From the sequence record PZ168289.1: a DNA stretch of 39,017 nucleotides. The stretch is one strand, 5' to 3'. A program made the position numbers and the translations under genes. Source of the stretch: a phage. Positions 6,930 through 30,079 of the stretch are shown piece after piece (within the stretch, counting starts at the first letter, position 1; each line of letters opens with the position of its first letter). The notes below the pieces were generated by a model. That model saw only the letters and a list, made by a program, of their open reading frames with translations. It had not been told where the DNA came from and searched no databases.

Positions 6930-7388
6930 TTAACCACGGTCGGAAGTGACCAGTTCATTGGTAGACAGCCAGCGTTGCAAGTCGAAACTTGGACACGCCT
7001 TAGGTGCTACGTCATGGTGTGCTTTGATTTCTGCCTGAGGATACATGGACTTCAGGTCAGCCAGCTTGTTGCGCAGGGAGTTCATCTGGGCTGTAGTGAA
7101 GTTAGCTTCAAACTGACCCTTAGCGTTGATTCCACCTACAAGGCAGACGCCTACGGACTTGGAGTTCCAGTCCTTAACGTGTGACCCTACGACATTGACT
7201 GGGCGACCCTCTTCCACAGTGCCATCACGTTTGATGATAAAGTGGTAGCCTACGTCCAGCCAGCCTTGCTGCTTGTGCCACATACGGATGGTCTCTACCC
7301 CGATGTCCATCTCTGGCTTGGTAGCCGAACAGTGAACGAAGATAGCGTCAGTCCGGGACCGTGGGTTGAACTGTACCTTACTTACCAT
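6930..7388 (-). CDS. lysozyme / N-acetylmuramoyl-L-alanine amidase (T7 gp3.5-like)
   Basis: Near-identical blocks to T7 lysozyme (DAIFVHCSATKP, WLDVGYHFIIKRDGTVE, GVCLVGGI, APKACPSFDL, ELVTSDRG). Confidence 0.96.
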   Translation of the reverse strand: MVSKVQFNPRSRTDAIFVHCSATKPEMDIGVETIRMWHKQQGWLDVGYHFIIKRDGTVEEGRPVNVVGSHVKDWNSKSVGVCLVGGINAKGQFEANFTTAQMNSLRNKLADLKSMYPQAEIKAHHDVAPKACPSFDLQRWLSTNELVTSDRG

Positions 7389-7848
7389 TGTACACCACCA
7401 ATTCTACGACCACTAGATTCAGGTGCTGGGTGAAGCGCTGTGCGTCCGTGGTGTGCATCTGGAGACGCTTATGGTTGAAGACGTGTGAGTTGCTAATCTT
7501 CACGTAAACTTCTTCAGGCTTTCCGTGGACGATGAACGTCTGGCCTACACCAATCTTGTCGATGGTCAGGACTTCACGCTTCACAGTCACAGGCGGTACG
7601 CTCGAAGCTGGCAGGACTTGCGGTTTATCCTCTACGATTTCCTCAAGATGTTCTTTTAAAACCCACGCCCCCCACATACCGTCAGGCTGAGTGTCATAAC
7701 CTGCTGCTCCGTGTTTGTAGGCTCCACGCTCAGTGGATTCCACCAGAACATGTCCAGACGATGGTACAGGGTCTTTCGCACATTTCGTAACGATAGTACC
7801 TTTAGGCCACCCGTAGCCACTAACCTTAAGTCTATATTTCTGAGTCAT
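7378..7848 (-). CDS. orphan hypothetical protein inserted between endonuclease I and lysozyme
   Basis: 156-aa ORF; AGGAG 7 nt upstream of ATG 7848; start overlaps gp3 stop (TGATG); 3' end overlaps lysozyme start by 11 nt; no recognisable motif; T7 has no gene here. Confidence 0.6.
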   Translation of the reverse strand: MTQKYRLKVSGYGWPKGTIVTKCAKDPVPSSGHVLVESTERGAYKHGAAGYDTQPDGMWGAWVLKEHLEEIVEDKPQVLPASSVPPVTVKREVLTIDKIGVGQTFIVHGKPEEVYVKISNSHVFNHKRLQMHTTDAQRFTQHLNLVVVELVVYNGK

Positions 7849-8300
7849 CACTTAACTCCTTTCTTCTTGGGGATGAGGATACCTGAAGGCAGACGTACAG
7901 TCGCCTCTCGCAGCCACTCAACCGGGATGAACTTATCGGCATACTTATAGCCGTTCTTTTCGCACCATGCGCCATACGTGGTCGGAGACCCCTTGTATAA
8001 CTTGGAGCGGGAACTTGAGAACACGAACCGAATGTCTAACTCAGGGTGCTGTTCTTTAATCAATAGGTGCTTCTTACGGTCTTCCACTGCGAAGATTCCT
8101 TTGGTCTCCACAATTATTCCATTGGGCAATACAAAGTCTGGACAATAACTGTGTAGAGACTGAGGGATTGTGTATGCTATTTTATACATCTCGTATTCAG
8201 CCTTTACGCCATTCTTCTCCAGCCACTCTTGGTTCTTTGCCTCAAGACCAGACCTATATATTCCTACCGAATGTCCCCTGCTTATACTACGTGTAGCCAT
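7848..8300 (-). CDS. endonuclease I (T7 gp3-like Holliday junction resolvase)
   Basis: Strong similarity to T7 gp3 (YRSGLE, PDF.LPNGI.VETKG, DRKKHLLI.EQHPELDIR.VFSSS..KLYKGSPT.YG). Confidence 0.96.
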   Translation of the reverse strand: MATRSISRGHSVGIYRSGLEAKNQEWLEKNGVKAEYEMYKIAYTIPQSLHSYCPDFVLPNGIIVETKGIFAVEDRKKHLLIKEQHPELDIRFVFSSSRSKLYKGSPTTYGAWCEKNGYKYADKFIPVEWLREATVRLPSGILIPKKKGVK

Positions 8301-12413: not shown

Positions 12414-15095
12414 TTAAGCGAATGCAAAGTCTGAAGACAAGATGTCTTCGATATTCAGTTTACCTTTCTTCGGAAGCTCAGGCAACTTATCGCGCTGGCT
12501 CTCATGAAGCTGGTATTCAAACTGCTCGTAGAAGTCCAGCAGCACATCGTTGTCTCGGTAGGTCTCGACCATCGTCTCACGGACACCACGGAACAGATAC
12601 TCAGCGTCAGCCGGGATGGTCCCGAAGCTATCGTGAATCACTGCGAATGACATCACGCCATACTTGCGGTGAGTGTGGACTACAGTCTTGCGTAGGTGGC
12701 TACCATCTTGTGAGTGGACGAAGTTCGGGCTAATTCCTGACTCCTGCTTGTGCTTATCCAGCTCCTTCTTCGTGCCTTTGTTGACGGTAGGCTGAAGGTT
12801 GAATGACCCTAAGAACATCAGGTTCAGACGAGTTGTATCCTTCTTGCGGTATTCCTGCCATACCGGGAACCCATCAGGTGTGACCCAGTGTACCGGAAGA
12901 CAAGGCTTCAGGATTTCTCCAGTCTTCTTGTCCTTCACCTCAGCAGCCAGCAGCTTGGCAGCACCTTGAAGCCACTTCATCGCGTCAACCGCAGCAACTA
13001 CTGTCACACTCACAGCTTCCCAAATCATCTTAGCCATGAAGCGAGACGCTTGGCTTGGTTCAGTGAACATAGCGCCAGACCCTGAGTCAATCGCTGGCAT
13101 CACGATGTCCTCGTATACTTGGTCTGCGAAGCCGTACTCTTTCGACCCGTAGGCCAGAGTCATGACCGAACGCTTAGTGACCTTGCGTGACATACCGTAG
13201 GTCAGCCACTGACGGGCCAGCTCTCGTGTCCCCAGCTTGAGACGCTCGGTAATCTCACCAGTTTTCTTGTCCTCGTGAGTTGCCATCTCGTTGTCCGTAC
13301 CGTTAACCAGCAGGACTTTGAGTTCCTCCTCAATGCGGTCAGACACAATGCGATAGATGTCTTGGACCTTACCGGATGGCGTTAGGTTTACTGCATGCCC
13401 ACCGATGTGGTCACGAAGCATCGCGCTGAAGTGCTGAATCCCAGAGCAGGACCCATCGAAAGCTATCGGCAGCGAGCAGGAGTAAGACAAACCGTGGTGC
13501 ATTACGCCAGCATACTCGAAGCAGAACGCTAGGAAGCAGAACGGAGAGTCTAACTTACCCCACCACTCAATGCTGTCCATCGGTGCTTTAGCGGTAGCCA
13601 TGATGTTGTCGTGGTTATCTTCCACCCACTTGATGCGCTCCTCGAAGGTTACTTTATCAATACCCGCACAGTTTGCACCGTGGACCTTCAGCCATTTGAA
13701 ACCATCAGCACCAATAGGCTTACCGACTGCCAGAGTCAGCAGACCCTTTTGCATGTCGTTACCCTGAGGGTTGAACATCGGCACAGCGTAGACGCGACCG
13801 CGCCAGTCCATGTTGTACGGAAACCAGATGGCCTTGAACTGAGAGAACTTGTTCGCTTGGTTAACGATAAAGCTCAGTGACAATCTACGTGACTGCCGGG
13901 CCTTCTCTCGGCGGTAGATACCAGCAGCAGCCTTCTTCCATGCCTTGAGTTCCTCCTCGGTCTCACCCGCATAGTCCTCAGGCTTCAGTGGCTCCATCTG
14001 AGGGATGTCATCAATAGGTGTGTTGTTCAACTTCTCGACCATGTTCACCACGTCCAGCACCTTCTTGTTCACTTTCCAAGGTGTGTTCTGAATGATGTTC
14101 ACAGCGTCGTAGACTTCAGGCATGTATACGTCTTCATAACGTGCCACCGCTGACTTAGACCCTAAGCGAATCAGGGGCAGCGGTCTGCGACCTTTGGCCC
14201 AGTACCCACCGCCTACGACACCAGTCCACGGCTTAGGTGGAACGACGCAAGGCTGGTAGACTGGAGCGATACCCGCAAGGCTGAATCCTCGTTGTGCCAT
14301 CTTCTTGACCCAGAAGTCTGACAGGTGGACCATCTCTACGTCAGCCGCTGCATTGCCAGCACCGTACCGCTTAAGCTCGACCAGTTGTGTTGACTGGATG
14401 ACAATCTCAAGCATCTTGATGCCAACGTGGACAGCCTCTGTAGGACTCCAAGTCCCCCACGCATCTTCCAGTTGGCCTTGCTCCAGCATGGATGCCTCGA
14501 CCGCTTGCATGTAGGCTTTCTTGTAGGACGCCCCGGCCCGCTTATTCAGGTTATCAGCTATCGCCTTCTTGAAGTGCTCTTTCTCCTTGTCACGGATGCG
14601 ACCGAAGCGGATTTCGTCCTCAAGTGTGCGACCTATCGCGGAGGCCATCGGTGTAATCGGTATCCCTTCAGGCTTGACCAGCTTGGAGAGTATGACCTTC
14701 AGTATGATGACCGCAGCAGACTCGCAAGAGATACGCAGAGAGCGGTCCTTGACGGCCTTCTCTTCAGTGCTCAACATGGTGAACGCTACGCTAGGACGAG
14801 AGGTTGACAGCTTCCCGTCTGGGCCTCCATGCCACTCCTTGATGGCTTGCGCAATCTTAGGGACCAGAGTCTGCATCAAAGGCTTGGCTACCTGATTGTC
14901 TGCGAGTTCTCCGCGCTCAGTCTGGCGCTCAAGGTTCTTGATGAAACGTCGCTCGCCTTCAGTGTATGCCTCGTGCTCAAGCTGAAGCTGCTTGACTGCA
15001 AGGTCCTGCCCGTAGTGGTCAGCCAGCAGGTTAAACGGCTCAATGGCGTTTGACACATCAGAGAAGTCGTGTTTTTCAATAGAGATGACGCTCAT
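12414..15095 (-). CDS. single-subunit DNA-directed RNA polymerase (T7 gp1-like)
   Basis: Collinear with T7 RNAP (HDFSD, PFN.LADHYG, motifs around DGSCSGIQHFSA and HDSFGT, C-terminal FAFA); start set to ATG 15095 (MSVISIEKHDF) with AAGGA RBS; track start 15146 is GTG. Confidence 0.97.
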   Translation of the reverse strand: MSVISIEKHDFSDVSNAIEPFNLLADHYGQDLAVKQLQLEHEAYTEGERRFIKNLERQTERGELADNQVAKPLMQTLVPKIAQAIKEWHGGPDGKLSTSRPSVAFTMLSTEEKAVKDRSLRISCESAAVIILKVILSKLVKPEGIPITPMASAIGRTLEDEIRFGRIRDKEKEHFKKAIADNLNKRAGASYKKAYMQAVEASMLEQGQLEDAWGTWSPTEAVHVGIKMLEIVIQSTQLVELKRYGAGNAAADVEMVHLSDFWVKKMAQRGFSLAGIAPVYQPCVVPPKPWTGVVGGGYWAKGRRPLPLIRLGSKSAVARYEDVYMPEVYDAVNIIQNTPWKVNKKVLDVVNMVEKLNNTPIDDIPQMEPLKPEDYAGETEEELKAWKKAAAGIYRREKARQSRRLSLSFIVNQANKFSQFKAIWFPYNMDWRGRVYAVPMFNPQGNDMQKGLLTLAVGKPIGADGFKWLKVHGANCAGIDKVTFEERIKWVEDNHDNIMATAKAPMDSIEWWGKLDSPFCFLAFCFEYAGVMHHGLSYSCSLPIAFDGSCSGIQHFSAMLRDHIGGHAVNLTPSGKVQDIYRIVSDRIEEELKVLLVNGTDNEMATHEDKKTGEITERLKLGTRELARQWLTYGMSRKVTKRSVMTLAYGSKEYGFADQVYEDIVMPAIDSGSGAMFTEPSQASRFMAKMIWEAVSVTVVAAVDAMKWLQGAAKLLAAEVKDKKTGEILKPCLPVHWVTPDGFPVWQEYRKKDTTRLNLMFLGSFNLQPTVNKGTKKELDKHKQESGISPNFVHSQDGSHLRKTVVHTHRKYGVMSFAVIHDSFGTIPADAEYLFRGVRETMVETYRDNDVLLDFYEQFEYQLHESQRDKLPELPKKGKLNIEDILSSDFAFA

Positions 15096-15163: not shown

Positions 15164-15186
15164 GAGTCCTATAGTGATAGTTAAGT
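15164..15186 (-). promoter_or_regulatory. phage RNAP promoter directly upstream of the RNAP gene
   Basis: CCTATAGTGATAGTTAAG at 15168-15185, about 70 nt upstream of RNAP ATG 15095. Confidence 0.65.
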
Positions 15187-15191
15187 CATAA

Positions 15192-15452
15192 TTACTTGCA
15201 TATCAGAGGGTTAGCGTGAAGATGACTGAAGTCACCGTGAGTCGTGTGCTTGATGGTTGACCGTTGGTCTATCGCCTTCCAGCCTGAGACCAGAAGTTTA
15301 CCATCGTCGGTGATTGGTCGTCCACCATACGCCAGACACATCAGCTCGGACTTATGGCCCTCGGCCCGGAGTCTTGCTTGCAGAACCCGGTCTCGCTCCT
15401 GCTGTTGACGTGCGGTGTGACTTGATGGTTTGTGTGTGTATACGGTTTTCAT
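15192..15452 (-). CDS. hypothetical early protein
   Basis: 86-aa ORF directly upstream of RNAP; start overlaps the stop of the preceding ORF. Confidence 0.5.
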   Translation of the reverse strand: MKTVYTHKPSSHTARQQQERDRVLQARLRAEGHKSELMCLAYGGRPITDDGKLLVSGWKAIDQRSTIKHTTHGDFSHLHANPLICK

Positions 15453-15649
15453 TACAGTTTGCTCCCAAGAGTTGCTATATCCCAGACGTTCGCTAAATTG
15501 CGCATGAATCGTCCGTTAGGTTGACGTACAGTCCAGCGGCCCAGACGTACATAGTTGAATTTGTAGACTTTACATGCCTTGTTGATGTCTCTCACCAGCA
15601 CGTAGGCGATAAGTCCATAGCCATAGGCTATCAATAGTGCAAGACTCAT
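15452..15649 (-). CDS. hypothetical early protein with hydrophobic N-terminal segment
   Basis: 65-aa ORF; N-terminal stretch LALLIAYGYGLIAYVLV looks like a transmembrane helix; ATGA overlap with upstream micro-ORF. Confidence 0.5.
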   Translation of the reverse strand: MSLALLIAYGYGLIAYVLVRDINKACKVYKFNYVRLGRWTVRQPNGRFMRNLANVWDIATLGSKL

Positions 15650-15735
15650 AGTGATTTCCGTTTAATACAGTCGTATAACCCATAGCCTATCATCCAGATA
15701 ACTGGCGCTAGGCAGACCCAATATCCCACACTCAT
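15646..15735 (-). CDS. putative 29-aa hydrophobic micro-protein
   Basis: Hand-translated MSVGYWVCLAPVIWMIGYGLYDCIKRKSL; AGGAG 7 nt upstream; stop overlaps next start (ATGA). Confidence 0.3.
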   Translation of the reverse strand: MSVGYWVCLAPVIWMIGYGLYDCIKRKSL

Positions 15736-15805
15736 AGTTAACTCCTATTAATGCAAGTGGTAATCTTTGAGGCCACCTATCAGTCGATGACCTCTCGTCT
15801 ATCAC

Positions 15806-15931
15806 TCAGTACCCGCCTGTCAGTGTTATGGTTAGGCTATGGTGATTAGCCACGTAGCAAGCCCCGCGCTTCATCATCTCGTAGCACCCATCGTAGAACG
15901 CCTGTTCACTGCTATAAGTTATCTGGTACAT
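15806..15931 (-). CDS. hypothetical early micro-protein (track ORF 15806..15994 shortened)
   Basis: Track start 15994 is GTG; internal ATG at 15931 follows a GGGAG motif and sits just after the stop of the upstream 49-aa ORF. Confidence 0.35.
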   Translation of the reverse strand: MYQITYSSEQAFYDGCYEMMKRGACYVANHHSLTITLTGGY

Positions 15932-15932
15932 G

Positions 15933-16082
15933 TTAGTCAATCTCCCAGATAGCCGTACCATTTGGTAGACGTTTACCAAACCCCTGCTGGTCACGGAAGC
16001 GTGCCCTTGCGTCTCTCTCGTTGTATCCGTAGCAAGTCATTGTGTAACACCATCCCGGAATGTGTATAGCGTATCGTTTCAT
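15933..16082 (-). CDS. hypothetical early micro-protein (49 aa)
   Basis: Hand-translated MKRYAIHIPGWCYTMTCYGYNERDARARFRDQQ...; GAGGA 9 nt upstream; ATGA overlap with upstream ORF. Confidence 0.4.
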   Translation of the reverse strand: MKRYAIHIPGWCYTMTCYGYNERDARARFRDQQGFGKRLPNGTAIWEID

Positions 16083-16240
16083 TGTGGTTTATCCTCAGCG
16101 TGTAGACTATCGTGAATACGTTTGCGGCCCTCATAGACCGCTTTCAGGTGACGCATGGTCGCATCGTGGTTTAACTGCCCGGTCTTGACCATAATCCGGG
16201 CGTTGGTGACGTGGTGCTGGCAGAGACCATAAGTTACCAT
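16079..16240 (-). CDS. hypothetical early micro-protein (53 aa)
   Basis: Hand-translated MVTYGLCQHHVTNARIMVKTGQLNHDATMRHLKAVYEGRKRIHDSLHAEDKPQ; ATG overlaps Ocr stop (TGATG); GAGGA upstream. Confidence 0.4.
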   Translation of the reverse strand: MVTYGLCQHHVTNARIMVKTGQLNHDATMRHLKAVYEGRKRIHDSLHAEDKPQ

Positions 16241-16767
16241 CAATCGCAATCCTCAGCAGCCGCAGGGTCGAACACTACGTTATCGTTGATGTCTTCGACC
16301 TGCATGTGAAAACCTTCCTCATAGAGTTCTTTTGCACATGCAGTAGCCTCGTAAAGTGATACAGCTCCCTCAATTATCTCGCCTGTTCTAGTGTCAACTA
16401 CCCAATATTCAGCCTTTTCGTCTTCCTCTTCAGCCTTTTCGTCTGCCTCTTCATCCTCAAACCAGACCACATCCGAGCTATTAGACACGTCGTTATAAAG
16501 CGCCTCATAGATGCGAGCTTGCAGTATACGCGTTACATCCTTGGTATCAGGCATCAGCCCAGAATCTTCGAACTCGTGGTCTATACCATCAGCAGCCATT
16601 ACCGTGAAAATCTCGTGGTAATAGTGCGGAACATTACCGTCTACGACCTCATGCAGCGCATCGCTGTAGTCGTCTCCTTCAGCTATTTCGTCGTACTGAA
16701 TACGCTCGTTAAATGCCTTAACGGTTGCAGCCAGCAGGTCATAGTATGCGTTAGCGTTACGTTCCAT
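16240..16767 (-). CDS. Ocr-like DNA-mimic anti-restriction protein (T7 gp0.3 homolog) with C-terminal extension
   Basis: Residues ~24-95 align with T7 Ocr (YD.I...DD..DA.H...D..VPHYY..IF.VMA..GID.EFEDSGLMPDTKDV.RILQARIYE); very acidic; 175 aa vs 117 in T7. Confidence 0.85.
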   Translation of the reverse strand: MERNANAYYDLLAATVKAFNERIQYDEIAEGDDYSDALHEVVDGNVPHYYHEIFTVMAADGIDHEFEDSGLMPDTKDVTRILQARIYEALYNDVSNSSDVVWFEDEEADEKAEEEDEKAEYWVVDTRTGEIIEGAVSLYEATACAKELYEEGFHMQVEDINDNVVFDPAAAEDCD

Positions 16768-16799
16768 AGTTATATCCTCTCAAAGTTAATTGTGTGTAT

Positions 16800-16850
16800 G
16801 TTAGTGACTATCAATCAGGCCGCTATGAGTCTAACGACCTGTAGTTAATC
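16800..16850 (-). other. early-region hairpin element A (putative RNase III site upstream of ocr)
   Basis: Minus RNA AGGUCG-UUAGACUCAUAG-CGGCCU (plus 16817-16840); related to element B. Confidence 0.35.
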
Positions 16851-17025
16851 ACTGGCAATTGAACGCATGGTCCAAGCACTTATTGAACGCGTCCTGCGCT
16901 TGCTCACGGCTATCCCACTCAGTCTTAGACAATCCGTAGATTATCACATGCTTAGTGCGATACTTATAGTCGTTAGCCGTATACCAGATTACGCCCAGTT
17001 CTTCGTTCATCGCTATGATTTTCAT
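16849..17025 (-). CDS. putative first early ORF (58 aa)
   Basis: Hand-translated MKIIAMNEELGVIWYTANDYKYRTKHVIIYGLSKTEWDSREQAQDAFNKCLDHAFNCQ; weak RBS; flanked by two related hairpin elements. Confidence 0.3.
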   Translation of the reverse strand: MKIIAMNEELGVIWYTANDYKYRTKHVIIYGLSKTEWDSREQAQDAFNKCLDHAFNCQ

Positions 17026-17039
17026 AATGTTACCCTATT

Positions 17040-17100
17040 TAAGTTAGTGACTATCAGTCAAGGCCTTCAGATGTAGACTCAAAGACCCTGTAGTTAGTCG
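17040..17100 (-). other. early-region hairpin element B (in leader of first early ORF)
   Basis: Minus RNA CAGGGUCUU-(14 nt loop)-AAGGCCUUG (plus 17059-17090); ~55 bp related to element A, including an internal direct repeat. Confidence 0.35.
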
Positions 17101-17205
17101 CTATCGGCGCACATTAAGAGTTTATCCAGATTGTTAAAGAGCATTCGCGTTGGCTGTCGTCGCCGTGCTATCCCGTTTCAGTGTTGGGACTCACTAATCT
17201 TGCTT

Positions 17206-17242
17206 GCCGTATAAGTTACTACAGTCAAACCAGCTTGTCAAT
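17206..17242 (-). promoter_or_regulatory. candidate host sigma70 early promoter 3
   Basis: Minus-strand TTGACA (plus 17236-17241), 17-nt spacer, TAACTT (plus 17213-17218); layout resembles T7 A2/A3. Confidence 0.35.
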
Positions 17243-17274
17243 CACTTTCTTAACTCGCTTGCTGTCCTGCTTGG

Positions 17275-17311
17275 TGAATCATACTACTTTAAGTCGGTAC
17301 ATCTTGTCAAC
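17275..17311 (-). promoter_or_regulatory. candidate host sigma70 early promoter 2
   Basis: Minus-strand TTGACA (plus 17305-17310), 18-nt spacer, TAGTAT (plus 17281-17286). Confidence 0.4.
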
Positions 17312-17414
17312 TACTTTCTGTCATCTGCCTGTTGTTCGTATGACTTATCAGGCTGTCTACTTAACCGGGATGACCCGGCGTCTTCACTATCGGTTGTTGC
17401 CGTGTCGTGTTGAC

Positions 17415-17451
17415 GGAATCTATTAAGCCATAGTCTGGACCTGTAGTCAAT
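17415..17451 (-). promoter_or_regulatory. candidate host sigma70 early promoter 1
   Basis: Minus-strand TTGACT (plus 17445-17450) with weak -10 candidates 17-18 nt downstream; weakest of the three. Confidence 0.25.
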
Positions 17452-17459
17452 AGGTAATC

Positions 17460-18093
17460 TTAAATAATATTGATTGAGCTATCGTCGGCCCCATAGTGTA
17501 AGAGGATATAGTCTTTGACTAACATGTCTTTGACCTTAAGTCTATAGCTGTGTGTCGATTAACTGTAGGCCTTTGACTGTAGGCGTTGGTGTCTTATGGT
17601 TGTGACTTATGGTTGTGACTTATGGTTGTGACTTATGGTTGTGACTTATGGTTGTGACTTATGGTTATACAGATAGAGACTCAGAGGCAGACCAATAGTC
17701 CCTACCTATCGTCTCCACCACCACCGATAGTCATGACCTATCGTTGACTTGAGGTATTTACAGCCGGTCCAACCTTATGATAGACTGGGGTAGGGCCTTT
17801 GGTCTGGACTTAAAGAGGGCCTATGGGGAGACTTGAGGTTCTTGAACTGTGAGATGTGGTCTCAAACTTTTGGTCCAAAACTCATCGTCCCTACTGTAGG
17901 ACACAGCCACTGTAGGTCAAGGACCGTAGGTCAGGCGACACTAGGATAGACCAATAAGTAGGATGACCCTAAGTGAGCTTCTATTAAGGTGTTACCTAAA
18001 GTCCTTGACTACAGTAGCTAAGGTCAGTAGAGTGAGTCTTTATCCACGTACTGACCTTAGGTCTTCCGCTCATGAATCGTTACCATGATTGCG
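17460..18093. repeat. ORF-free genome-terminus region with dispersed short repeats (likely holds the collapsed terminal repeat / concatemer junction)
   Basis: No ORF of any size with an RBS; recurrent short motifs (TAGGTCA/TGACCTA variants, TGTAGG); lies between the last late gene and the early promoters, where the T7 ends and terminal repeat map. Confidence 0.5.
17593..17670. repeat. tandem array of a 13-bp unit CTTATGGTTGTGA (5 perfect copies plus degenerate flanking copies)
   Basis: Perfect copies at 17593-17605, 17606-17618, 17619-17631, 17632-17644, 17645-17657; partial copy 17658-17670; in the ORF-free genome-end region. Confidence 0.9.
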
Positions 18094-26400: not shown

Positions 26401-27361
26401 CGTATGTCAGAGGGTCTACACCAGCACCAATCACACCAGCAGCTAACTGAGCACCAGTCCCAGCCTTGGCCTTCTCTTGGTCCAACTTCTGGTTCTCAAG
26501 CGCCAAGTTGATAAGCTCGGTCAGGTTCTGAGGTGAGCCACCAGTAATGACTCCGTAATACTGGGGCAGAACCCCAGCGTTACGAATCTGGTCCAGCTCC
26601 TCACGAGCCCACTTATGGTTGTTCCAGCGGGTCGGGTTGAACACATCGCCAATGACATCAAGTGAGTCCTCAGTCTGACCAGCGCGGATAGCCACGCCGA
26701 CCATAGAGTTCTTCACTTCGGCTTCTGTAGCCGCACCAAAACCGAACCACGTAGAGCGACCCTCTCGTTCCTGCATGGTCTCGCCAGTAGACTTATAGAA
26801 CATCTCACCGAACGATTCGTTGGGAGCTTCAGGTGCTTGACCCTCAATGTTAAGACCAGCAGCGGTCGGAAGGTTCTCACCCAGAGCTACTTTAGGTTTA
26901 GCCTTGAGTCCTTCCGTGAGTGCGTCAAATACGTTAGCGCTTACTGGTGGAGTCTTTGGGCTAATGCCATTGAGTGCTCGTGCGACTCCCTTCTGATAGA
27001 CTTCAGGGTCGTACCGGGAGCCTGTCTCATGGAAGCTGATAGCTTGAGCCAGAGAAGACAGGGTGTCAGGGTCCGATAGGTCGAGGCTCTGGGTAGCTGG
27101 AATACCAGTTGCAGCCACCACTGAGTCAATATAAGACTTAGTATCGTTCTCGTTAGGAGGTGCCCATCGGTTGATAATCTTCTCGATGGAGTCATAACCT
27201 TGGCGACCGTAGGACAGCAGGTTTTTACCTAAAGCTCGGACGCCAGACTCTGGGCTATCAAATATTACAAACTCCCCATCATCACCAATAGCTCCTTCCC
27301 ATTGGTCCTTAGACTTACGTATATTTCCAGGGTTCGAATTTCTTATGCCACGTGTTGCCAT
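23474..27361 (-). CDS. internal virion protein D with N-terminal lytic transglycosylase domain (T7 gp16-like)
   Basis: 1295 aa; long collinear similarity to T7 gp16 (PTRWN.H.W, GAGVDPL.YVP, MRLEARETARN, VRSPTGMQSG, GTYVPHVY, AYGISH..QF, NNSFLEARNLFDSD); AAGGAG RBS. Confidence 0.96.
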   Translation of the reverse strand: MATRGIRNSNPGNIRKSKDQWEGAIGDDGEFVIFDSPESGVRALGKNLLSYGRQGYDSIEKIINRWAPPNENDTKSYIDSVVAATGIPATQSLDLSDPDTLSSLAQAISFHETGSRYDPEVYQKGVARALNGISPKTPPVSANVFDALTEGLKAKPKVALGENLPTAAGLNIEGQAPEAPNESFGEMFYKSTGETMQEREGRSTWFGFGAATEAEVKNSMVGVAIRAGQTEDSLDVIGDVFNPTRWNNHKWAREELDQIRNAGVLPQYYGVITGGSPQNLTELINLALENQKLDQEKAKAGTGAQLAAGVIGAGVDPLTYVPIAGQVGKGGKLVNKMFTVAAQSGALAGVSEMARTSVAGGDAHVAEAILGGALFGGGMTAIADGLGRALGRNTNEFAGPATRLEARETARNVDGQDLSRLPIQEGEQTFSHQGVKFADVPNEPGSVRLEDGSILIGENPLNPKTRQVFDEVIEPERAAAGVNLGGLTEIGLKLLRSENPEIRGVAADLVRSPTGMQSGSSGKIGTTASDVFERLRAVDHRLYNDIDDAVTEALKDPYFQTAFWRDSGAFRQDIYQRVSMAIEDGSGNLKAELTPGELKVYDLLKNQFDAKREMMENPAMFGRPDAQSIFPGSRFKGTYVPHVYSKQMKELYIKELGSPEALQEAIKKSWLTSYASRPEVKKRVDEALLEADPTLTPEGLAAAVDKYANDKAYGISHTEQFERSSVMEENINGLVGLENNSFLEARNLFDSDMSIVLPNGQTFSVNNLREWDMDKIVPAYNRRVNGDIAIMAGAGKTTKEMKDLVETMMNKAGDDGKLKGEVSTLRDTLKILTGRARRDGADDAAFATVMRTMTDLSFFAKNAYMGVQNLTEIGGMLARGNVRAMLHGVPIFRDLAFRNKKVGASEIKDLHNVIFGKELDDSIRPSKQDVIDRLRSYSDLGRGTATALGTAKYYTGELAVRSPFTKVLNGTTNYLLDAGRQGFLSDIVEHSLTGSKRKFDDRWLKTAGISDEQWKGIKSLIRESVTRGPDGKYTIKDKKAFSQDPRAMDLWRMGDTIADETLLRPHKLSNMDAKAYGPLAKTVLQFKNFVIKSINGRTMRTFYNATKNNRAMDAALSTVMSMGLAGIYYMAQAHVKAYAMQDGRDREYLKQALDPTMIGYAALSRSSHLGGPLGVANILGGIAGYEDTKMLRSSILPRSPTEQPERAIAYGAATSDPVMNVVGNFLEQVPAFGYAANVGASAYNLAGYLKADTRVNERDYMTGMYNTFRELVPNDPITQKLLLGTFEEQGIHIKN

Positions 27362-27792
27362 GTCTTTCTCCTTAAGATATTTCTAATAGAAACCGTACTC
27401 ACTCCATAGGAGCTAGCTAGGAATGAAACCTTTAGGTCGCTAGACCGTATGTTCTTCACATCAGTCTCTGTCAATTTGGACACTCCTATTGAGCTTCCAG
27501 ACGCTTGACGACCTCTTTCCACCTTGTCTCTAATGTTGTCAGCCTGAGTTCCGGCCTCAAGATGGTCAGGGTTTATGCAGGACGGATTGTCGCACTTATG
27601 GCGTACAACATACCCTTCAGGTATAGGACCACTGGCAAGCTCATAAGCTAGTCGATGTGCTCTATACTTAACTCTGTTAATCATTATCTGACCGTAACCG
27701 TCAGAATCTACGGTCCCAGTGAATCGGATACAGCCAGAGCTTTCAGCTACTGACAATTCTGCCAGTCTCTCACTGGCTGTCCCGTTCTTCAT
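27343..27792 (-). CDS. HNH homing endonuclease (copy 2 of 3)
   Basis: HNH motif (C..FTG, AHRLAYEL, HKCDNPSCINPDHL) plus HTH-like tail; start set to ATG 27792 with AAGGAG RBS (track 27810); 3' end overlaps the first codons of gp16. Confidence 0.85.
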   Translation of the reverse strand: MKNGTASERLAELSVAESSGCIRFTGTVDSDGYGQIMINRVKYRAHRLAYELASGPIPEGYVVRHKCDNPSCINPDHLEAGTQADNIRDKVERGRQASGSSIGVSKLTETDVKNIRSSDLKVSFLASSYGVSTVSIRNILRRKTWQHVA

Positions 27793-27796
27793 TATG

Positions 27797-30079
27797 TTAC
27801 TCCTTACCAATTAGTACGTTTGCGATACCCTCCAGTGAGACGTCATTATACATCCCACCGCGCTTCTCGATGTCGGCCTCTCGGTCAGCTCGACGTTTAT
27901 CACCAGCAGCTTTAGTCCCGACGATACGCGCTCGCTTGTTAGCGTCACGTTCTGCCTGAGCGTATGCGGCATCCTGTGCCTTCTGCTGTTGTTCGCGGTA
28001 GAGTTTACCTACAAGTTCTTTATCGTAGCGAATACGAATAGTCCCTGTAGCGTCTTGGAGGAAGATAGAGCCGTTCTGTTCAACAACGGACAACTGAGAG
28101 TTCACTACCCAAGGGTTGGCCTTAATGAGCTGCTTACGGGCGGTGTCGATAATGTCTCGACCTACCTGCCACGACTCAGGGTTATCCCCGACCATGAGCT
28201 GGTGCTTGGACACCATGCCGATGGACTTACCGTCAGAGCCTTCAGACTGGAACGTTACGGTATTTTCATTCAGCCATCGTTGAGTCTGCTGAGTTGCAGC
28301 GTCAGCGTTACCTGTACGATAGTACCATGAGTCCCAGACCTTACGAGCACTTGAGTCCAGAGACGTAGGAAGACGCGAAAGGTCCTTATTCCGAGAGTCG
28401 TTCTTCAACTCCTGCCACGCCTTGTCTGACTCCATGCGCATCTCACGGCTTTGACTTGCAGCTTGCTTATCAGCTTCAATCATCGTCTGAGGGTCCAGAC
28501 CCATCTTGTCCATCTGGTCGAACGTAGAGAACAACTGAGCTTGGTCAGGATACAGAGCAGCGAAACTTGAAGGGTCCTGAGTGTAGGCACGACGCAGTGA
28601 CTCGAAGCGTTTCATCTTGTCTGGGTCGTACTGTCCACGGATGACCGCAGCTTGCCACTCACCAGCAGCGTCCTGAGTCAGCGTCTGGAAGGCATTACGG
28701 AACGGACCGTTGTTAGTGTCAGCTCTTAACAATGCCACCTTCTGAGCGTCTTTAGCGGCCTCAGGGATGTCCATCTGGTCAATCTGCTGTAGCTTGGCAG
28801 ACGCATAGTTGTTCATGTCAGAACGCTTGAACTCGCCTGTAGCATCTGAGACCGGAAGGTCCTCATAGTTGGTGGACACGTTGTCACCAGCCAGCCGCCG
28901 CTGATATACTTGGTCTATGACCAGTTGCTTGTTCTGGGTCTGGATTAACTTAGTGTTCTCCTTAGCCTGTTCAGCGGACTTACGCTTGACCGCTTCCAGT
29001 AAGCTGGCTTCGGCATTAATAAGCATCTGACGCTGAGGCGTTAGTTCTTCACCGGGTTGAAGCAGGTTGTTCTGCTCCTTGAGTTTCTGAATCTGGGCAA
29101 GACCAATGGTTGGGTCGTCCTGAAGAATCGCAGACTGAACGCCTAACGCCAAGTCTTCCTGATACTTAGCAACCAGTTTATACTCAGTACCTTGGGCCTC
29201 AACCATAGCAGCATTGAAGACGTCAGGTCCTACAATCTCTTCGACGGTAGCGTCAACACCGTTAAGTGTGATACGCTCGCCACGGACTTGCTGTAGGAAG
29301 TTTGAGCCTCCTGACTTCTGGATTGCGTCACGGACCGTCTGGGTGATGACCTCTCGTGCTCTCTGGTCCGAAGGTATAGCAGCAGTCGTCAGTCCATCAC
29401 GAAGGTAGGCCATGAAGGTCTTTCCAGACTCAGGCGAACGCATCAGGTCCCCATCGTTAAGGAACGAGTTCATCTCAATACGAGTGTTCAACATTGCTGT
29501 CTCTTCAGACTGCTTGCTGAAATACTTATTGAATGACCCGTATATAGCGATGTTTCTGTCCGTGATGTTATCGTTGAATCCACGCTGGAAGAACTCGTCG
29601 GTAGGGTTAATACCCGCCTCTTCAGCATAGGACTTAGCGGCATCCTGAAGTCGCTGGTGGCGATACTCTTCCATGTCCTGACGTGTTCGGAACTCACCGT
29701 TCTGAATCTTAACGTTAATCTCGTCATCCACCGCAAAGGCAGCGTTACGACCAGTCTTGACTCGAAGTGCTTCCATAGCGTAAGGGTCATCCTGATACAG
29801 CAATGTGCCGTTCTGGATAGCCTCACGTCTCTGCTGAGGTGTCAACTTACGGATAATCTCGTTAGACCGCTCGTCAGCTCTGGTCTTCTCCTCGTCCTTG
29901 AACTGCTTGTACAATCCAGTCCCAGACTCAACGAAGTTGGTTAACGCACGAGCCAGACCGGAGTCACCAGTCGGAGCCTGAACGTTTGCTGCTTGATAGT
30001 TGACGGCGATAGTTTTACCCGGCGCTCTGCCACGACCCATAGTCCGATTAGCAAGAGCTGATTCAATATTACTAGCCAT
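27797..30079 (-). CDS. internal virion protein C (T7 gp15-like)
   Basis: Collinear with T7 gp15 (DERSNEIIRKLTPQQRREA.QNGTLLYQDDPYAMEALRVKTGRNAA, EEYRH.RLQ, IRYDKEL). Confidence 0.93.
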   Translation of the reverse strand: MASNIESALANRTMGRGRAPGKTIAVNYQAANVQAPTGDSGLARALTNFVESGTGLYKQFKDEEKTRADERSNEIIRKLTPQQRREAIQNGTLLYQDDPYAMEALRVKTGRNAAFAVDDEINVKIQNGEFRTRQDMEEYRHQRLQDAAKSYAEEAGINPTDEFFQRGFNDNITDRNIAIYGSFNKYFSKQSEETAMLNTRIEMNSFLNDGDLMRSPESGKTFMAYLRDGLTTAAIPSDQRAREVITQTVRDAIQKSGGSNFLQQVRGERITLNGVDATVEEIVGPDVFNAAMVEAQGTEYKLVAKYQEDLALGVQSAILQDDPTIGLAQIQKLKEQNNLLQPGEELTPQRQMLINAEASLLEAVKRKSAEQAKENTKLIQTQNKQLVIDQVYQRRLAGDNVSTNYEDLPVSDATGEFKRSDMNNYASAKLQQIDQMDIPEAAKDAQKVALLRADTNNGPFRNAFQTLTQDAAGEWQAAVIRGQYDPDKMKRFESLRRAYTQDPSSFAALYPDQAQLFSTFDQMDKMGLDPQTMIEADKQAASQSREMRMESDKAWQELKNDSRNKDLSRLPTSLDSSARKVWDSWYYRTGNADAATQQTQRWLNENTVTFQSEGSDGKSIGMVSKHQLMVGDNPESWQVGRDIIDTARKQLIKANPWVVNSQLSVVEQNGSIFLQDATGTIRIRYDKELVGKLYREQQQKAQDAAYAQAERDANKRARIVGTKAAGDKRRADREADIEKRGGMYNDVSLEGIANVLIGKE

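What the first reader, a model, noticed from the sequence alone, without database searches (positions are those of the whole stretch)
15192..17025. Early region lacks a gp0.7-type kinase and carries a chain of coupled micro-ORFs
Between the putative host promoters and the RNAP gene there is no ORF large enough to be the T7 gp0.7 kinase/transcription shut-off protein. Instead there are at least eight small ORFs (29-86 aa) linked by ATGA/TGATG overlaps, most with a Shine-Dalgarno; two have hydrophobic segments. Early micro-proteins of T7-like phages are a known reservoir of host-takeover and anti-defence factors, and these have no obvious T7 counterparts.
Basis: partly seen in the sequence, partly recalled or inferred. 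Interest (0 to 1): 0.55.

Follow-up and report, generated by a model that had tools for sequence, protein, structure and literature searches.

The report
Ordinary K1F-type phage early region
This is the normal early-gene region of a K1F-like (Kayfunavirus) relative of phage T7: its tiny genes are real and conserved, and the T7 kinase is missing as in most of the genus, so the finding is largely ordinary, although one tiny gene is a hidden relative of T7's cell-division inhibitor.

Summary
The window is a complete Kayfunavirus (K1F/EcoDS1-like) genome read on the minus strand. Positions 17025-15192 are its host-transcribed early region.

What holds up:
- No gp0.7-type kinase exists anywhere in the window.
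- The region is tiled by translationally coupled small genes: 92% coverage against 38% in shuffles.
- Two of these genes encode membrane peptides.

What needs correcting:
- There are eight real genes of 58, 175, 53, 49, 41, 29, 65 and 86 aa.
- The 47-aa GTG ORF is not a gene. It is an RNase III-type hairpin.
- Three genes do have T7/T3 counterparts: Ocr matches T7 gp0.3, the 53-aa protein is a remote homologue of T7 gp0.4 (the FtsZ inhibitor), and the 65-aa protein belongs to the T3 gp0.6 family.
- All eight genes recur in relatives under purifying selection. All except the 29-aa peptide, which matched no PHROG, fall in existing PHROG families.

Kinase absence is typical of the genus (K1F, EcoDS1). 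About 48 GenBank members carry a short kinase, sitting exactly between the 41-aa and 29-aa genes and flanked by two RNase III hairpins. The window has a single hairpin at that position.

The one useful lead is the 53-aa protein (K1F gp0.35). It is a candidate for the unidentified FtsZ-blocking factor of K1F.

The parts
17210..17455 (-). Three sigma-70-like host (class I) promoters. Boundaries are approximate and function is inferred.
   Evidence: TTGACT at 17450-17445, TTGACA at 17310-17305 and TTGACA at 17241-17236 are read directly. The scan lists 17310-17281 (10 of 12 matches). EcoDS1 annotates three host promoters at the equivalent place.
17043..17103 (-). RNase III-type hairpin h1, equivalent to R0.3, upstream of the first gene
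   Evidence: Covariance model hit of 48.6 bits, E 2e-11. Folds to -20.2 kcal/mol with a lower stem, an asymmetric internal loop and an upper stem, the same architecture as annotated T3 sites.
16849..17025 (-). 58-aa early gene (phrog_20418, function unknown). It forms a single-gene cassette between two hairpins.
   Evidence: PHROG E 1.8e-36. Intact in 3 of 33 relatives with dN/dS 0.40. Present in 48 phage records, mostly Klebsiella T7-like phages, near the left end.
16800..16854 (-). RNase III-type hairpin h2
   Evidence: Covariance model hit of 64.2 bits, E 5e-16. Folds to -23 kcal/mol with z -4.5.
16240..16767 (-). Ocr-like DNA-mimic anti-restriction gene, 175 aa, with a C-terminal extension of about 56 aa (K1F gp0.3 type)
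   Evidence: Pfam PF08684 at 109 bits against a cutoff of 25. phrog_2568 E 3e-56. 90% identical to K1F gp0.3 and 51% to T7 gp0.3.
16079..16240 (-). 53-aa gene equivalent to K1F/EcoDS1 gp0.35, a remote homologue of T7 gp0.4 (FtsZ inhibitor). Its start overlaps the ocr stop codon (TGATG).
   Evidence: BLASTP against T7 gp0.4 gives 39% identity over 41 aa. Reciprocal PHROG cross-hits at 2.9e-5 and 9e-5. hhalign probability 88.5%, E 2.7e-6. Reciprocal genome-wide best HMM hits, and Smith-Waterman score reached by 0 of 20000 shuffles. An intermediate sequence in phage Sarma103 hits both HMMs. dN/dS 0.27 over 25 sequences.
15933..16082 (-). 49-aa gene (phrog_13225, function unknown), coupled by ATGA. 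A widely travelled accessory gene.
   Evidence: PHROG E 5e-33. dN/dS 0.04. Present in only 2 of 33 close relatives but in 89 phage records, including large myoviruses and siphoviruses.
15806..15931 (-). 41-aa gene (phrog_33188, function unknown)
   Evidence: Always 41 aa in 22 of 33 relatives, dN/dS 0.13. Found in 109 phage records. Also present outside the genus, next to a gp0.4-like gene in Rahnella phage Sarma103.
15753..15807 (-). RNase III-type hairpin h3. This is the slot where a short gp0.7-like kinase cassette sits in some Kayfunaviruses. EcoDS1 mis-annotates it as a 47-aa ORF.
   Evidence: Covariance model hit of 71.4 bits, E 3.5e-18. Across 21 hairpins, 97.9% of cells are paired against 26-45% in slid controls, and 6 pairs show compensatory changes. 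The 47-aa frame is broken in most relatives. In kinase-bearing relatives the kinase lies between two such hairpins at this position.
15646..15735 (-). 29-aa single-pass membrane peptide with a strong Shine-Dalgarno sequence (AGGAG, 6 nt upstream)
   Evidence: A homologue was found in 24 of 33 relatives; the orthologous ORF was extracted for 23 and is exactly 29 aa in 21 of those (L008 and L035 differ). dN/dS 0.16, with hydrophobicity preserved. Kyte-Doolittle 1.60. No PHROG or Pfam match.
15452..15649 (-). 65-aa membrane-anchored protein, equivalent to K1F gp0.37 / EcoDS1 'gp0.6', a member of the T3 gp0.6 family. Coupled by ATGA.
   Evidence: phrog_2385 E 3e-31, the same family as T3 gp0.6. 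BLASTP against T3 gp0.6 E 8e-10. Present in 33 of 33 relatives, dN/dS 0.19-0.32. AF2 pLDDT 79: a TM helix, a three-stranded sheet and a helix. Fold matches phiYeO3-12 0.6B and other T7-like phage proteins; nothing in the PDB.
15192..15452 (-). 86-aa protein equivalent to K1F gp0.38 (phrog_7066, function unknown). Coupled by TAATG and always the last gene before gene 1.
   Evidence: phrog_7066 E 7.5e-46. Present in 33 of 33 relatives, with the C-terminal 70 aa conserved (dN/dS 0.25) and the N-terminus variable, 81-139 aa. 141 clusters, all from contigs of about 40 kb. Only 14 representatives at 50% identity. No Pfam match. AF2 pLDDT 54.
15165..15187 (-). Phage-RNAP promoter directly upstream of gene 1
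   Evidence: Exact match to the genome's own promoter core TAACTATCACTATAGG at 15183-15168, one of 11 such sites against 0.31 expected. EcoDS1 annotates a 'phi' promoter at the same place.
12414..15095 (-). Gene 1, the T7-type RNA polymerase, which forms the right boundary of the region
   Evidence: tblastn with T7 gp1 gives 62% identity over 898 aa.

Best explanation
Positions 17025-15192 on the minus strand are the class I (early) region of a Kayfunavirus, a K1F/EcoDS1-like member of the T7 group.

How it most likely works:
- Host RNA polymerase transcribes the region from three sigma-70-type promoters (inferred).
- RNase III-type hairpins divide the transcript into three units. Their structure is shown; cleavage is inferred. 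Unit A is the 58-aa gene. Unit B is Ocr(175 aa)-53-49-41. Unit C is 29-65-86.
- Within units B and C the genes are translationally coupled through overlapping or abutting stop and start codons. The overlaps are shown; coupling is inferred.

What the products are:
- Ocr, a DNA mimic that blocks type I restriction.
- A remote homologue of T7 gp0.4, which probably blocks FtsZ and cell division.
- A T3-gp0.6-type membrane-anchored protein, plus a 29-aa membrane peptide.
- Four conserved small proteins of unknown role (58, 49, 41 and 86 aa).

Why the kinase is absent:
- This lineage, like K1F, EcoDS1 and most of the genus, lacks the kinase cassette.
- In a minority of Kayfunaviruses a 243-244-aa kinase-domain-only gene, bounded by two RNase III hairpins, sits between the 41-aa and 29-aa genes. 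The window has one hairpin there.
- Host-transcription shut-off is presumably left to the gp2 and gp5.7 homologues, which are present.
For: IDENTITY
- 421 phage records match the region, the best being a Kayfunavirus at 94% identity.
- The first 25 kb of the window is about 93% identical to K1F and relatives.
- Gene order is the same as annotated in K1F, EcoDS1, SH3, Peacock, EPr2, vB_Eco_1RS and others.

THE GENES ARE REAL
- Intact orthologues exist across 33 loci, with dN/dS of 0.04-0.40.
- Tiling and coupling exceed all 1000 shuffles.
- Seven of the eight genes fall in PHROG families; the 29-aa peptide matched none.

COUNTERPARTS IN T7 AND T3
- Ocr: PF08684 at 109 bits.
- gp0.4.
- T3 gp0.6.

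HAIRPINS
- Folds are and covariation.
- They share the architecture of T3's annotated RNase III sites.
- A covariance model built only from Kayfunavirus hairpins recovers all four annotated T3 sites in the locus (R0.3, R0.5, R1, R1.1). In T7 it hits seven positions, including one just upstream of gene 0.3, one between genes 0.4 and 0.5, and one between 0.7 and gene 1.

KINASE
- Absent from the window.
- Present as a hairpin-flanked cassette at the 41/29 junction in 8 of 33 loci and in Salmonella phage ST29, whose taxonomy is Kayfunavirus.
- About 48 GenBank records carry this short kinase type.
- gp2 and gp5.7 homologues are present.
Against: - No expression, cleavage or functional data exist for this phage. 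Promoter use, RNase III cutting and translational coupling are inferred by analogy with T7 and T3.
- The gp0.4 link is remote: 39% identity over 41 aa and hhalign probability 88.5%. The Pfam gp0.4 model (PF26807) is not in the local library, so curated membership could not be scored.
- Dhanoa et al. 2022 (PMC9372555) reported no BLAST similarity between K1F and gene 0.4.
- The functions of five of the eight proteins (58, 49, 41, 29 and 86 aa) remain unknown. So does the molecular role of the gp0.6-type protein.
- Whether the kinase-less state is ancestral or derived could not be resolved. The kinase distribution is patchy on a short-segment tree.
Confidence: 0.9

Rival explanations
1. The micro-ORFs are chance open frames in a non-coding leader or regulatory region upstream of the RNA polymerase gene.
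For: The ORFs are very short. One mechanical ORF, the 47-aa GTG frame at 15805-15662, really is non-coding. The 29-aa ORF has no PHROG or Pfam hit.
Against: Coverage and coupling exceed all 1000 shuffles. Every retained ORF is intact, with conserved length, in relatives, and dN/dS is 0.04-0.40. Seven of the eight fall in PHROG families. Most have Shine-Dalgarno sequences.
Confidence: 0.02
2. The missing kinase is a peculiarity of this genome, either a recent deletion or an assembly artefact, rather than a lineage trait.
For: Some Kayfunaviruses carry a kinase exactly at the 41-aa/29-aa junction, flanked by two similar hairpins of about 53 nt. Recombination between these could excise the kinase cleanly.
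Against: 25 of 33 related loci lack the kinase and have a single hairpin at the slot. These include K1F, EcoDS1, SH3 and Peacock, sequenced independently. Only about 48 of the 421 matching GenBank records have the short kinase. No kinase remnant is present in the window.
Confidence: 0.03
3. One of the conserved small proteins functionally replaces gp0.7. The best candidate is the invariant 86-aa protein immediately upstream of gene 1, with or without the membrane pair 29/65. It might, for example, act as the host-transcription shut-off or a broad anti-defence factor.
For: - The 86-aa gene occupies the position of gene 0.7, as the last gene before gene 1, in all 33 relatives.
- The Kayfunavirus kinases that do exist lack the C-terminal shut-off domain (244 aa against 359 aa).
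- The 86-aa protein has a basic helical segment.
Against: - There is no detectable homology to gp0.7. hhalign probability is 0.5%, and a profile search of 1.8 billion representatives found only 14 small phage proteins and no kinase or shut-off-domain protein.
- The 86-aa gene co-occurs with the kinase in kinase-bearing relatives, so it is not an alternative to it.
- gp2 and gp5.7 homologues are present and could account for shut-off.
- The structure model is unreliable (pLDDT 54).
Confidence: 0.08

Closest known systems
Early region of coliphage K1F (genes 0.3, 0.35, 0.36, 0.37, 0.38) and EcoDS1 (0.3, 0.35, 0.6, 0.38), genus Kayfunavirus
   Same: - Same order: ocr, gp0.35, then gp0.37/'0.6', gp0.38, a phage promoter and gene 1.
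- 78-100% amino-acid identity for the shared genes.
- No gene 0.7.
- RNase III-type hairpins at the same places.
   Different: - The window additionally carries the 58-aa, 49-aa and 41-aa genes. These are absent from K1F and EcoDS1 but present in other members such as vB_Eco_1RS, PDP351P4 and Peacock.
- It has the 29-aa membrane peptide, which EcoDS1 also encodes (97% identical) but does not annotate, whereas K1F has the 55-aa gp0.36 membrane protein there.
- Its Ocr has the long (K1F-type) C-terminus rather than the short EcoDS1 form.
- This particular combination of modules is a new mosaic.
Class I (early) region of T7 and T3
   Same: - Host promoters, RNase III-processed polycistronic early mRNA and overlapping small genes ahead of gene 1.
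- Homologues of T7 gp0.3 and gp0.4 and of T3 gp0.6.
- gene 0.4 overlaps the stop codon of gene 0.3 exactly as in T7.
   Different: - No gp0.7 kinase/shut-off protein.
- No homologues of T7 gp0.5, T7 gp0.6A or T3 gp0.65.
- A phage promoter precedes gene 1, where T7 and T3 have the C promoter and the R1 site.
T7 gp0.4, inhibitor of FtsZ ring assembly (Kiro et al. 2013, as cited in PMC9372555)
   Same: - Similar length (53 aa against 51 aa).
- Same position immediately after ocr.
- Shared Y-G-L, V..G and LK..Y motifs.
- Reciprocal profile hits.
- K1F infection causes the same FtsZ mislocalisation and filamentation as T7 (PMC9372555).
   Different: - Only about 39% identity over 41 residues, and a different PHROG family (5058 against 7202).
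- FtsZ binding has not been tested.
- The literature states that K1F lacks gene 0.4.
Short gp0.7-like kinases of some Kayfunaviruses (e.g. Salmonella Typhi phage ST29, Klebsiella phage SAKp10309)
   Same: They occupy the exact slot that holds hairpin h3 in the window. Their flanking genes (41 aa upstream; 29, 65 and 86 aa downstream) are orthologous to the window's genes.
   Different: The window has no such gene. These kinases are kinase-domain only (243-244 aa) and lack the T7 shut-off domain.

Membership tests
Kayfunavirus (K1F-type) early region | High nucleotide identity and shared gene order: ocr, gp0.35, gp0.37, gp0.38, gene 1 | tested here: met
   (93-94% identity). (order, and 78-100% amino-acid identity).
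Kayfunavirus (K1F-type) early region | Phage-RNAP promoter immediately upstream of gene 1 | tested here: met
   Exact promoter core at 15183-15168. EcoDS1 annotates one at the same place.
T7 gp0.7 protein kinase / shut-off protein (phrog_2828) | Sequence similarity to the kinase domain or to the C-terminal shut-off domain, anywhere in the genome | tested here: not met
   tblastn best E 0.65. Kinase HMM best E 1.5, with its positive control at 5e-49. hhalign of the 86-aa family against gp0.7 gives probability 0.5%.
Ocr DNA mimic (Pfam PF08684) | Score above the Pfam gathering threshold, and a strongly acidic protein | tested here: met
   109.3 bits against a cutoff of 25. 48 Asp+Glu against 10 Lys+Arg.
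T7 gp0.4 FtsZ inhibitor family (phrog_7202 / Pfam PF26807) | Significant profile similarity and conserved position after gene 0.3 | tested here: met
   phrog_7202 E 2.9e-5, and the reverse direction 9e-5. hhalign probability 88.5%, E 2.7e-6. Reciprocal genome-wide best hits. Stop/start overlap with ocr as in T7.
T7 gp0.4 FtsZ inhibitor family (phrog_7202 / Pfam PF26807) | Score above the curated Pfam PF26807 threshold | not testable with these tools
   The local Pfam copy lacks PF26807; T7 gp0.4 itself returns no family.
T7 gp0.4 FtsZ inhibitor family (phrog_7202 / Pfam PF26807) | Binds FtsZ and blocks Z-ring assembly | not testable with these tools
   This needs an experiment. The only indirect support is that K1F infection mislocalises FtsZ (PMC9372555).
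T3 gp0.6 family (phrog_2385) | Membership of the same profile family, with an N-terminal TM helix followed by a basic C-terminal domain | tested here: met
   phrog_2385 E 3.4e-31 for the window protein and 9e-30 for T3 gp0.6. BLASTP E 8e-10. TM helix at residues 2-28 in the model. Fold match to phiYeO3-12 0.6B.
T7-group RNase III processing sites | Two-stem hairpin with an asymmetric internal loop, conserved by covariation and matching annotated sites | tested here: met
   97.9% of cells paired and 6 compensatory pairs. Same architecture as T3 R0.3, R0.5, R1 and R1.1. The covariance model recovers all four annotated T3 sites and seven T7 positions.
T7-group RNase III processing sites | Cleavage by host RNase III in vivo | not testable with these tools
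   Requires 5'/3'-end mapping in wild-type and rnc mutant hosts.

The most novel reading that the evidence does not exclude
The invariant three-gene unit immediately upstream of gene 1 could be a previously unrecognised membrane-anchored host-takeover or anti-defence module. It consists of the 29-aa membrane peptide, the T3-gp0.6-type membrane-anchored protein and the 86-aa gp0.38-type protein. It is present in every relative examined, with or without a kinase. Under this reading it would supply what the kinase/shut-off protein supplies in T7.

A more modest and more likely sub-case is that the 53-aa protein (K1F gp0.35) is the unidentified FtsZ-blocking factor of K1F-like phages.
Probability: 0.1. 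Interest if true: 0.55.

Novelty: new member of a known kind. Interest (0 to 1): 0.2.

Why it matters
As stated, the finding matters little. A kinase-less early region full of small coupled genes is the normal state of a long-sequenced genus; K1F and EcoDS1 carry the same annotation.

Three by-products are of modest use:

1. The 53-aa protein, equivalent to K1F gp0.35, is a remote gp0.4 homologue. A 2022 study concluded that K1F 'lacks the 0.4 gene' yet still blocks FtsZ through an unknown peptide (PMC9372555). This gives a single named candidate that a one-gene expression or deletion experiment can test.

2. Kinase presence or absence is polymorphic within one genus, at a precisely defined slot bounded by hairpins. 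This provides natural near-isogenic comparisons for the recently proposed broad anti-defence role of the T7 kinase (PMC13645617).

3. An ORF annotated in EcoDS1 and carried into PHROGs (phrog_36394) is really an RNase III-type hairpin.

Tried and rejected
1. Testing whether the 86-aa protein is a detached gp0.7 shut-off domain. hhalign probability was 0.5%. A profile search of 1.84 billion representatives found only 14 small phage proteins. AF2 gave pLDDT 54, too poor for a fold search. Its cysteines are not conserved, so a zinc-site idea was also dropped.

2. Fold search for the 65-aa protein. Only uncharacterised T7-like phage proteins matched, and nothing in the PDB reached E below 0.7. The function stays unknown.

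3. Pfam scans of all small proteins returned nothing except Ocr. The Pfam gp0.4 model is absent from the local copy.

4. Looking for these proteins among the 200 accessory genes screened by Silas et al. (bioRxiv 10.1101/2023.04.06.535777). No peptide strings or K1F/EcoDS1 names occur in the held supplements.

5. The K1F genome paper (Scholl & Merril 2005) could not be read because it is not held. The genus-level claim therefore rests on GenBank annotations and my own searches, not on that text.

6. Deciding between kinase loss and gain. A neighbour-joining tree on 285 nt of gene 1 shows a patchy distribution, but the segment is too short and the region too recombinogenic to polarise the event.

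7. The 62-aa GTG and 56-aa TTG 'longest ORF' versions of the 41-aa and 53-aa genes were rejected. The ATG starts carry Shine-Dalgarno sequences and match the orthologue lengths.


Full report
WHAT THE WINDOW IS

The 39,017-base window is a complete T7-group phage genome, circularly permuted and read on the minus strand. A tblastn of all T7 proteins maps gene 1 (RNA polymerase) to 15095-12417. Genes 1.2 to 19.5 follow in T7 order around the window.

The early region matches 421 phage records. The best is Kayfunavirus PDP351P4 at 94% identity. The first 25 kb is about 93% identical to K1F and its relatives. The phage is therefore a new member of the genus Kayfunavirus.

CHECKING THE OBSERVATION

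On the minus strand between 17025 and 15192 there are eight credible genes:
- 58 aa (17025-16849)
- 175 aa (16767-16240)
- 53 aa (16240-16079)
- 49 aa (16082-15933)
- 41 aa (15931-15806)
- 29 aa (15735-15646)
- 65 aa (15649-15452)
- 86 aa (15452-15192)

Their junctions are:
- TGATG between the 175-aa and 53-aa genes
- ATGA between the 53-aa and 49-aa genes
- TAAcATG between the 49-aa and 41-aa genes
- ATGA between the 29-aa and 65-aa genes
- TAATG between the 65-aa and 86-aa genes

Most genes have a GGAG/GAGG-type Shine-Dalgarno sequence.

ATG-ORFs cover 92% of the strand, with four coupled starts. In 1000 dinucleotide-preserving shuffles the mean coverage was 38% (maximum 75%) and the mean number of coupled starts 0.23 (maximum 3). 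No shuffle reached the observed values.

The 29-aa and 65-aa products each have one strongly hydrophobic segment.

The core observation therefore holds, with two corrections. Second, the mechanical ORF list also contains a 47-aa GTG ORF (15805-15662) and longer GTG/TTG versions of two genes, and none of these is real (see below).

NO KINASE

T7 and T3 gp0.7 find nothing in the window by tblastn; the best E is 0.65. An HMM built from eleven kinase domains was searched against all 1094 stop-to-stop frames. Its best hit had E 1.5, while it scored 5e-49 on a phage that was not used to build it. All large ORFs are accounted for by other T7 genes. Homologues of the host-RNAP inhibitors gp2 and gp5.7 are present.

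ARE THE SMALL ORFS GENES?

I collected 33 related early regions from GenBank records and IMG/VR contigs. I then checked orthologue intactness and substitution patterns.

| Gene | Loci (of 33) with a homologue | dN/dS | Note |
|---|---|---|---|
| 65 aa | 33 | 0.19-0.32 | loci were selected on this gene |
| 86 aa | 33 | 0.25-0.40 | N-terminus variable, C-terminal 70 aa conserved |
| 53 aa | 25 | 0.27 | |
| 29 aa | 24 | 0.16 | ORF extracted for 23; exactly 29 aa in 21 of them |
| 41 aa | 22 | 0.13 | always 41 aa |
| 58 aa | 3 | 0.40 | |
| 49 aa | 2 | 0.04 | |

The 58-aa and 49-aa genes are rare among close relatives but occur in 48 and 89 phage records respectively. The 49-aa gene is also found in large myoviruses and siphoviruses. 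All genes except the 29-aa peptide fall in existing PHROG families.

The 47-aa GTG frame behaves differently. It is truncated to 5-29 aa or fused to other frames in more than half of the relatives, and its dN/dS is 0.73.

WHAT THE 47-AA 'ORF' REALLY IS

Its DNA folds into a two-stem hairpin with an asymmetric internal loop. Two further elements, upstream of the 58-aa gene and upstream of ocr, fold the same way.

I aligned 21 such hairpins from the window and its relatives. Of all cells, 97.9% form standard pairs, against 26-45% when the partners are slid by one to three columns. Six pairs carry compensatory changes.

The architecture and the AGGTC...GGCCT upper stem match the RNase III sites annotated in T3.

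A covariance model built only from the Kayfunavirus hairpins recovers all four annotated T3 sites in the fetched locus (R0.3, R0.5, R1, R1.1). In T7 it hits seven positions. From my memory of the T7 map these correspond to R0.3, R0.5, R1, R1.1, R4.7, R6.5 and R18.5.

In the window the model finds six sites, all on the minus strand:
- 17103-17043
- 16854-16800
- 15807-15753
- 12107-12052
- 4725-4671
- 20914-20859

The early transcript is thus most likely cut into three units: [58], [Ocr-53-49-41] and [29-65-86]. There is no site between the 86-aa gene and gene 1. That position instead holds a perfect copy of the phage's own promoter core (15183-15168), as annotated in EcoDS1.

COUNTERPARTS IN T7 AND T3

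The 175-aa protein is Ocr. It scores 109 bits against Pfam PF08684 and is 51% identical to T7 gp0.3. It carries the same C-terminal extension of about 56 aa as K1F gp0.3.

The 65-aa protein belongs to the T3 gp0.6 family:
- Both fall in phrog_2385, and BLASTP gives E 8e-10.
- A moderately confident model (pLDDT 79) shows a transmembrane helix, a small sheet and a helix.
- The model matches the phiYeO3-12 0.6B protein and other proteins of T7-like phages.
- It matches no solved structure.

The 53-aa protein (K1F/EcoDS1 gp0.35) is a remote homologue of T7 gp0.4. The evidence is:
- 39% identity over 41 aa.
- Reciprocal cross-hits between the two PHROG families, at 2.9e-5 and 9e-5.
- hhalign probability 88.5%, E 2.7e-6.
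- Reciprocal best hits when each family's HMM is searched against every frame of the other genome. E values were 1.5e-3 and 2.4e-4, and the next best hit was above 1 in both cases.
- A Smith-Waterman score reached by none of 20,000 shuffles.
- An intermediate sequence, Rahnella phage Sarma103 'putative host cell division inhibitor', which hits both HMMs.
- The same stop/start overlap with gene 0.3 as in T7.

Dhanoa et al. 2022 reported that K1F mislocalises FtsZ like T7 but 'lacks the 0.4 genes', and that its inhibitory peptide is unknown (PMC9372555). gp0.35 is the obvious candidate.

WHERE THE KINASE WOULD BE

Eight of the 33 related loci carry a gp0.7-like kinase. So does Salmonella phage ST29, whose taxonomy is Kayfunavirus. 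This kinase is 243-244 aa, has the kinase domain only, and is 31-42% identical to T7 and T3 gp0.7. It sits between the 41-aa and 29-aa orthologues.

About 48 GenBank records carry this kinase type.

In those genomes the kinase lies between two RNase III-type hairpins. The window and the other kinase-less genomes have one hairpin there.

The distribution is patchy on a short gene 1 tree, and the kinase usually travels with a T3-type SAM hydrolase in place of Ocr. This suggests that the left part of the early region is exchanged as blocks, with hairpins as joints. I could not polarise loss against gain.

WHAT REMAINS UNKNOWN

The 86-aa protein (K1F gp0.38) is restricted to this phage group: 141 clusters, all from contigs of about 40 kb, and only 14 representatives at 50% identity. 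It has no Pfam domain. It shows no relationship to the gp0.7 shut-off domain, and its structure model is unreliable.

The 58-, 49-, 41- and 29-aa proteins have no functional annotation anywhere I could search.

VERDICT

The arrangement is nevertheless the ordinary, already annotated early region of K1F-like phages, and three of its genes do have T7 or T3 counterparts.

Interest is low. The useful residue is the gp0.4-like identity of gp0.35, the defined kinase slot, and the re-interpretation of one annotated ORF as an RNase III hairpin.

Noticed in passing
window 16240-16410 (-), C-terminal part of the Ocr-like gene: Ocr carries a C-terminal extension of about 56 aa (EYWVVDTRTGEII...VVFDPAAAEDCD) that T7 Ocr and EcoDS1 gp0.3 lack. 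tblastn finds it in 71 phage records. Wherever the matching record is annotated, the hit lies inside the Ocr gene. Its function is unknown.
   Followed up: partly
window 15165-15187 (-): A perfect phage-RNAP promoter lies directly upstream of the RNAP gene, and there is no R1-type RNase III hairpin there. This implies positive autoregulation of gene 1. T7 and T3 have a host promoter and the R1 site at that position instead.
   Followed up: partly
L001 (EcoDS1) 1493-1636; PHROG phrog_36394: The EcoDS1 CDS annotated 'unknown product' (47 aa, GTG start), and the PHROG built on it, correspond to an RNase III-type hairpin and not to a conserved reading frame.
   Followed up: yes
L003 (Escherichia phage CY1) 1861-2370: The CDS annotated 'protein kinase' in phage CY1 is the 169-aa Ocr-like protein. 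This is a misannotation, not a kinase.
   Followed up: yes
L005 (K1F NC_007456) about 2208-2470, against L038 (K1F AM084414) 2208-2468: In the RefSeq K1F record the gp0.38 frame stops after 12 codons and no gene is annotated there. The independent K1F record AM084414 annotates an intact 86-aa gp0.38. A frameshift or sequencing difference between the two records is likely.
   Followed up: partly
window 17589-17666: A 13-nt unit (GTGACTTATGGTT on the plus strand) is repeated six times in tandem between the genome end region and the host promoters. This is probably the kind of left-end repeat array seen in T7-like phages.
   Followed up: no
window 27343-27810 (-) and 7378-7851 (-): A gp7.7-like HNH endonuclease ORF sits between the gene 15 and gene 16 homologues. 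A 157-aa ORF of unknown function (phrog_16385) sits between the gene 3 and gene 3.5 homologues.
   Followed up: no
whole window: No homologues of T7 gp5.5 (H-NS inhibitor), gp5.9 (RecBCD inhibitor), gp1.1, gp4.3, gp4.5, gp4.7, gp5.3, gp6.3 or gp7 were found by tblastn at E of 1e-3 or below. One ORF at 3-446 does match a gp7-type PHROG.
   Followed up: no
protein P0287; L026 3044 onward: P0287 is a natural chimera with a K1F-type gp0.6 N-terminus and a T3-type C-terminus. The L026 version of the 86-aa protein has an internal duplication of the 'SEDGKLLLAGLKAGIQK' segment. The family profile also weakly hits repeats in two large proteins, P0132 and P0133.
   Followed up: no
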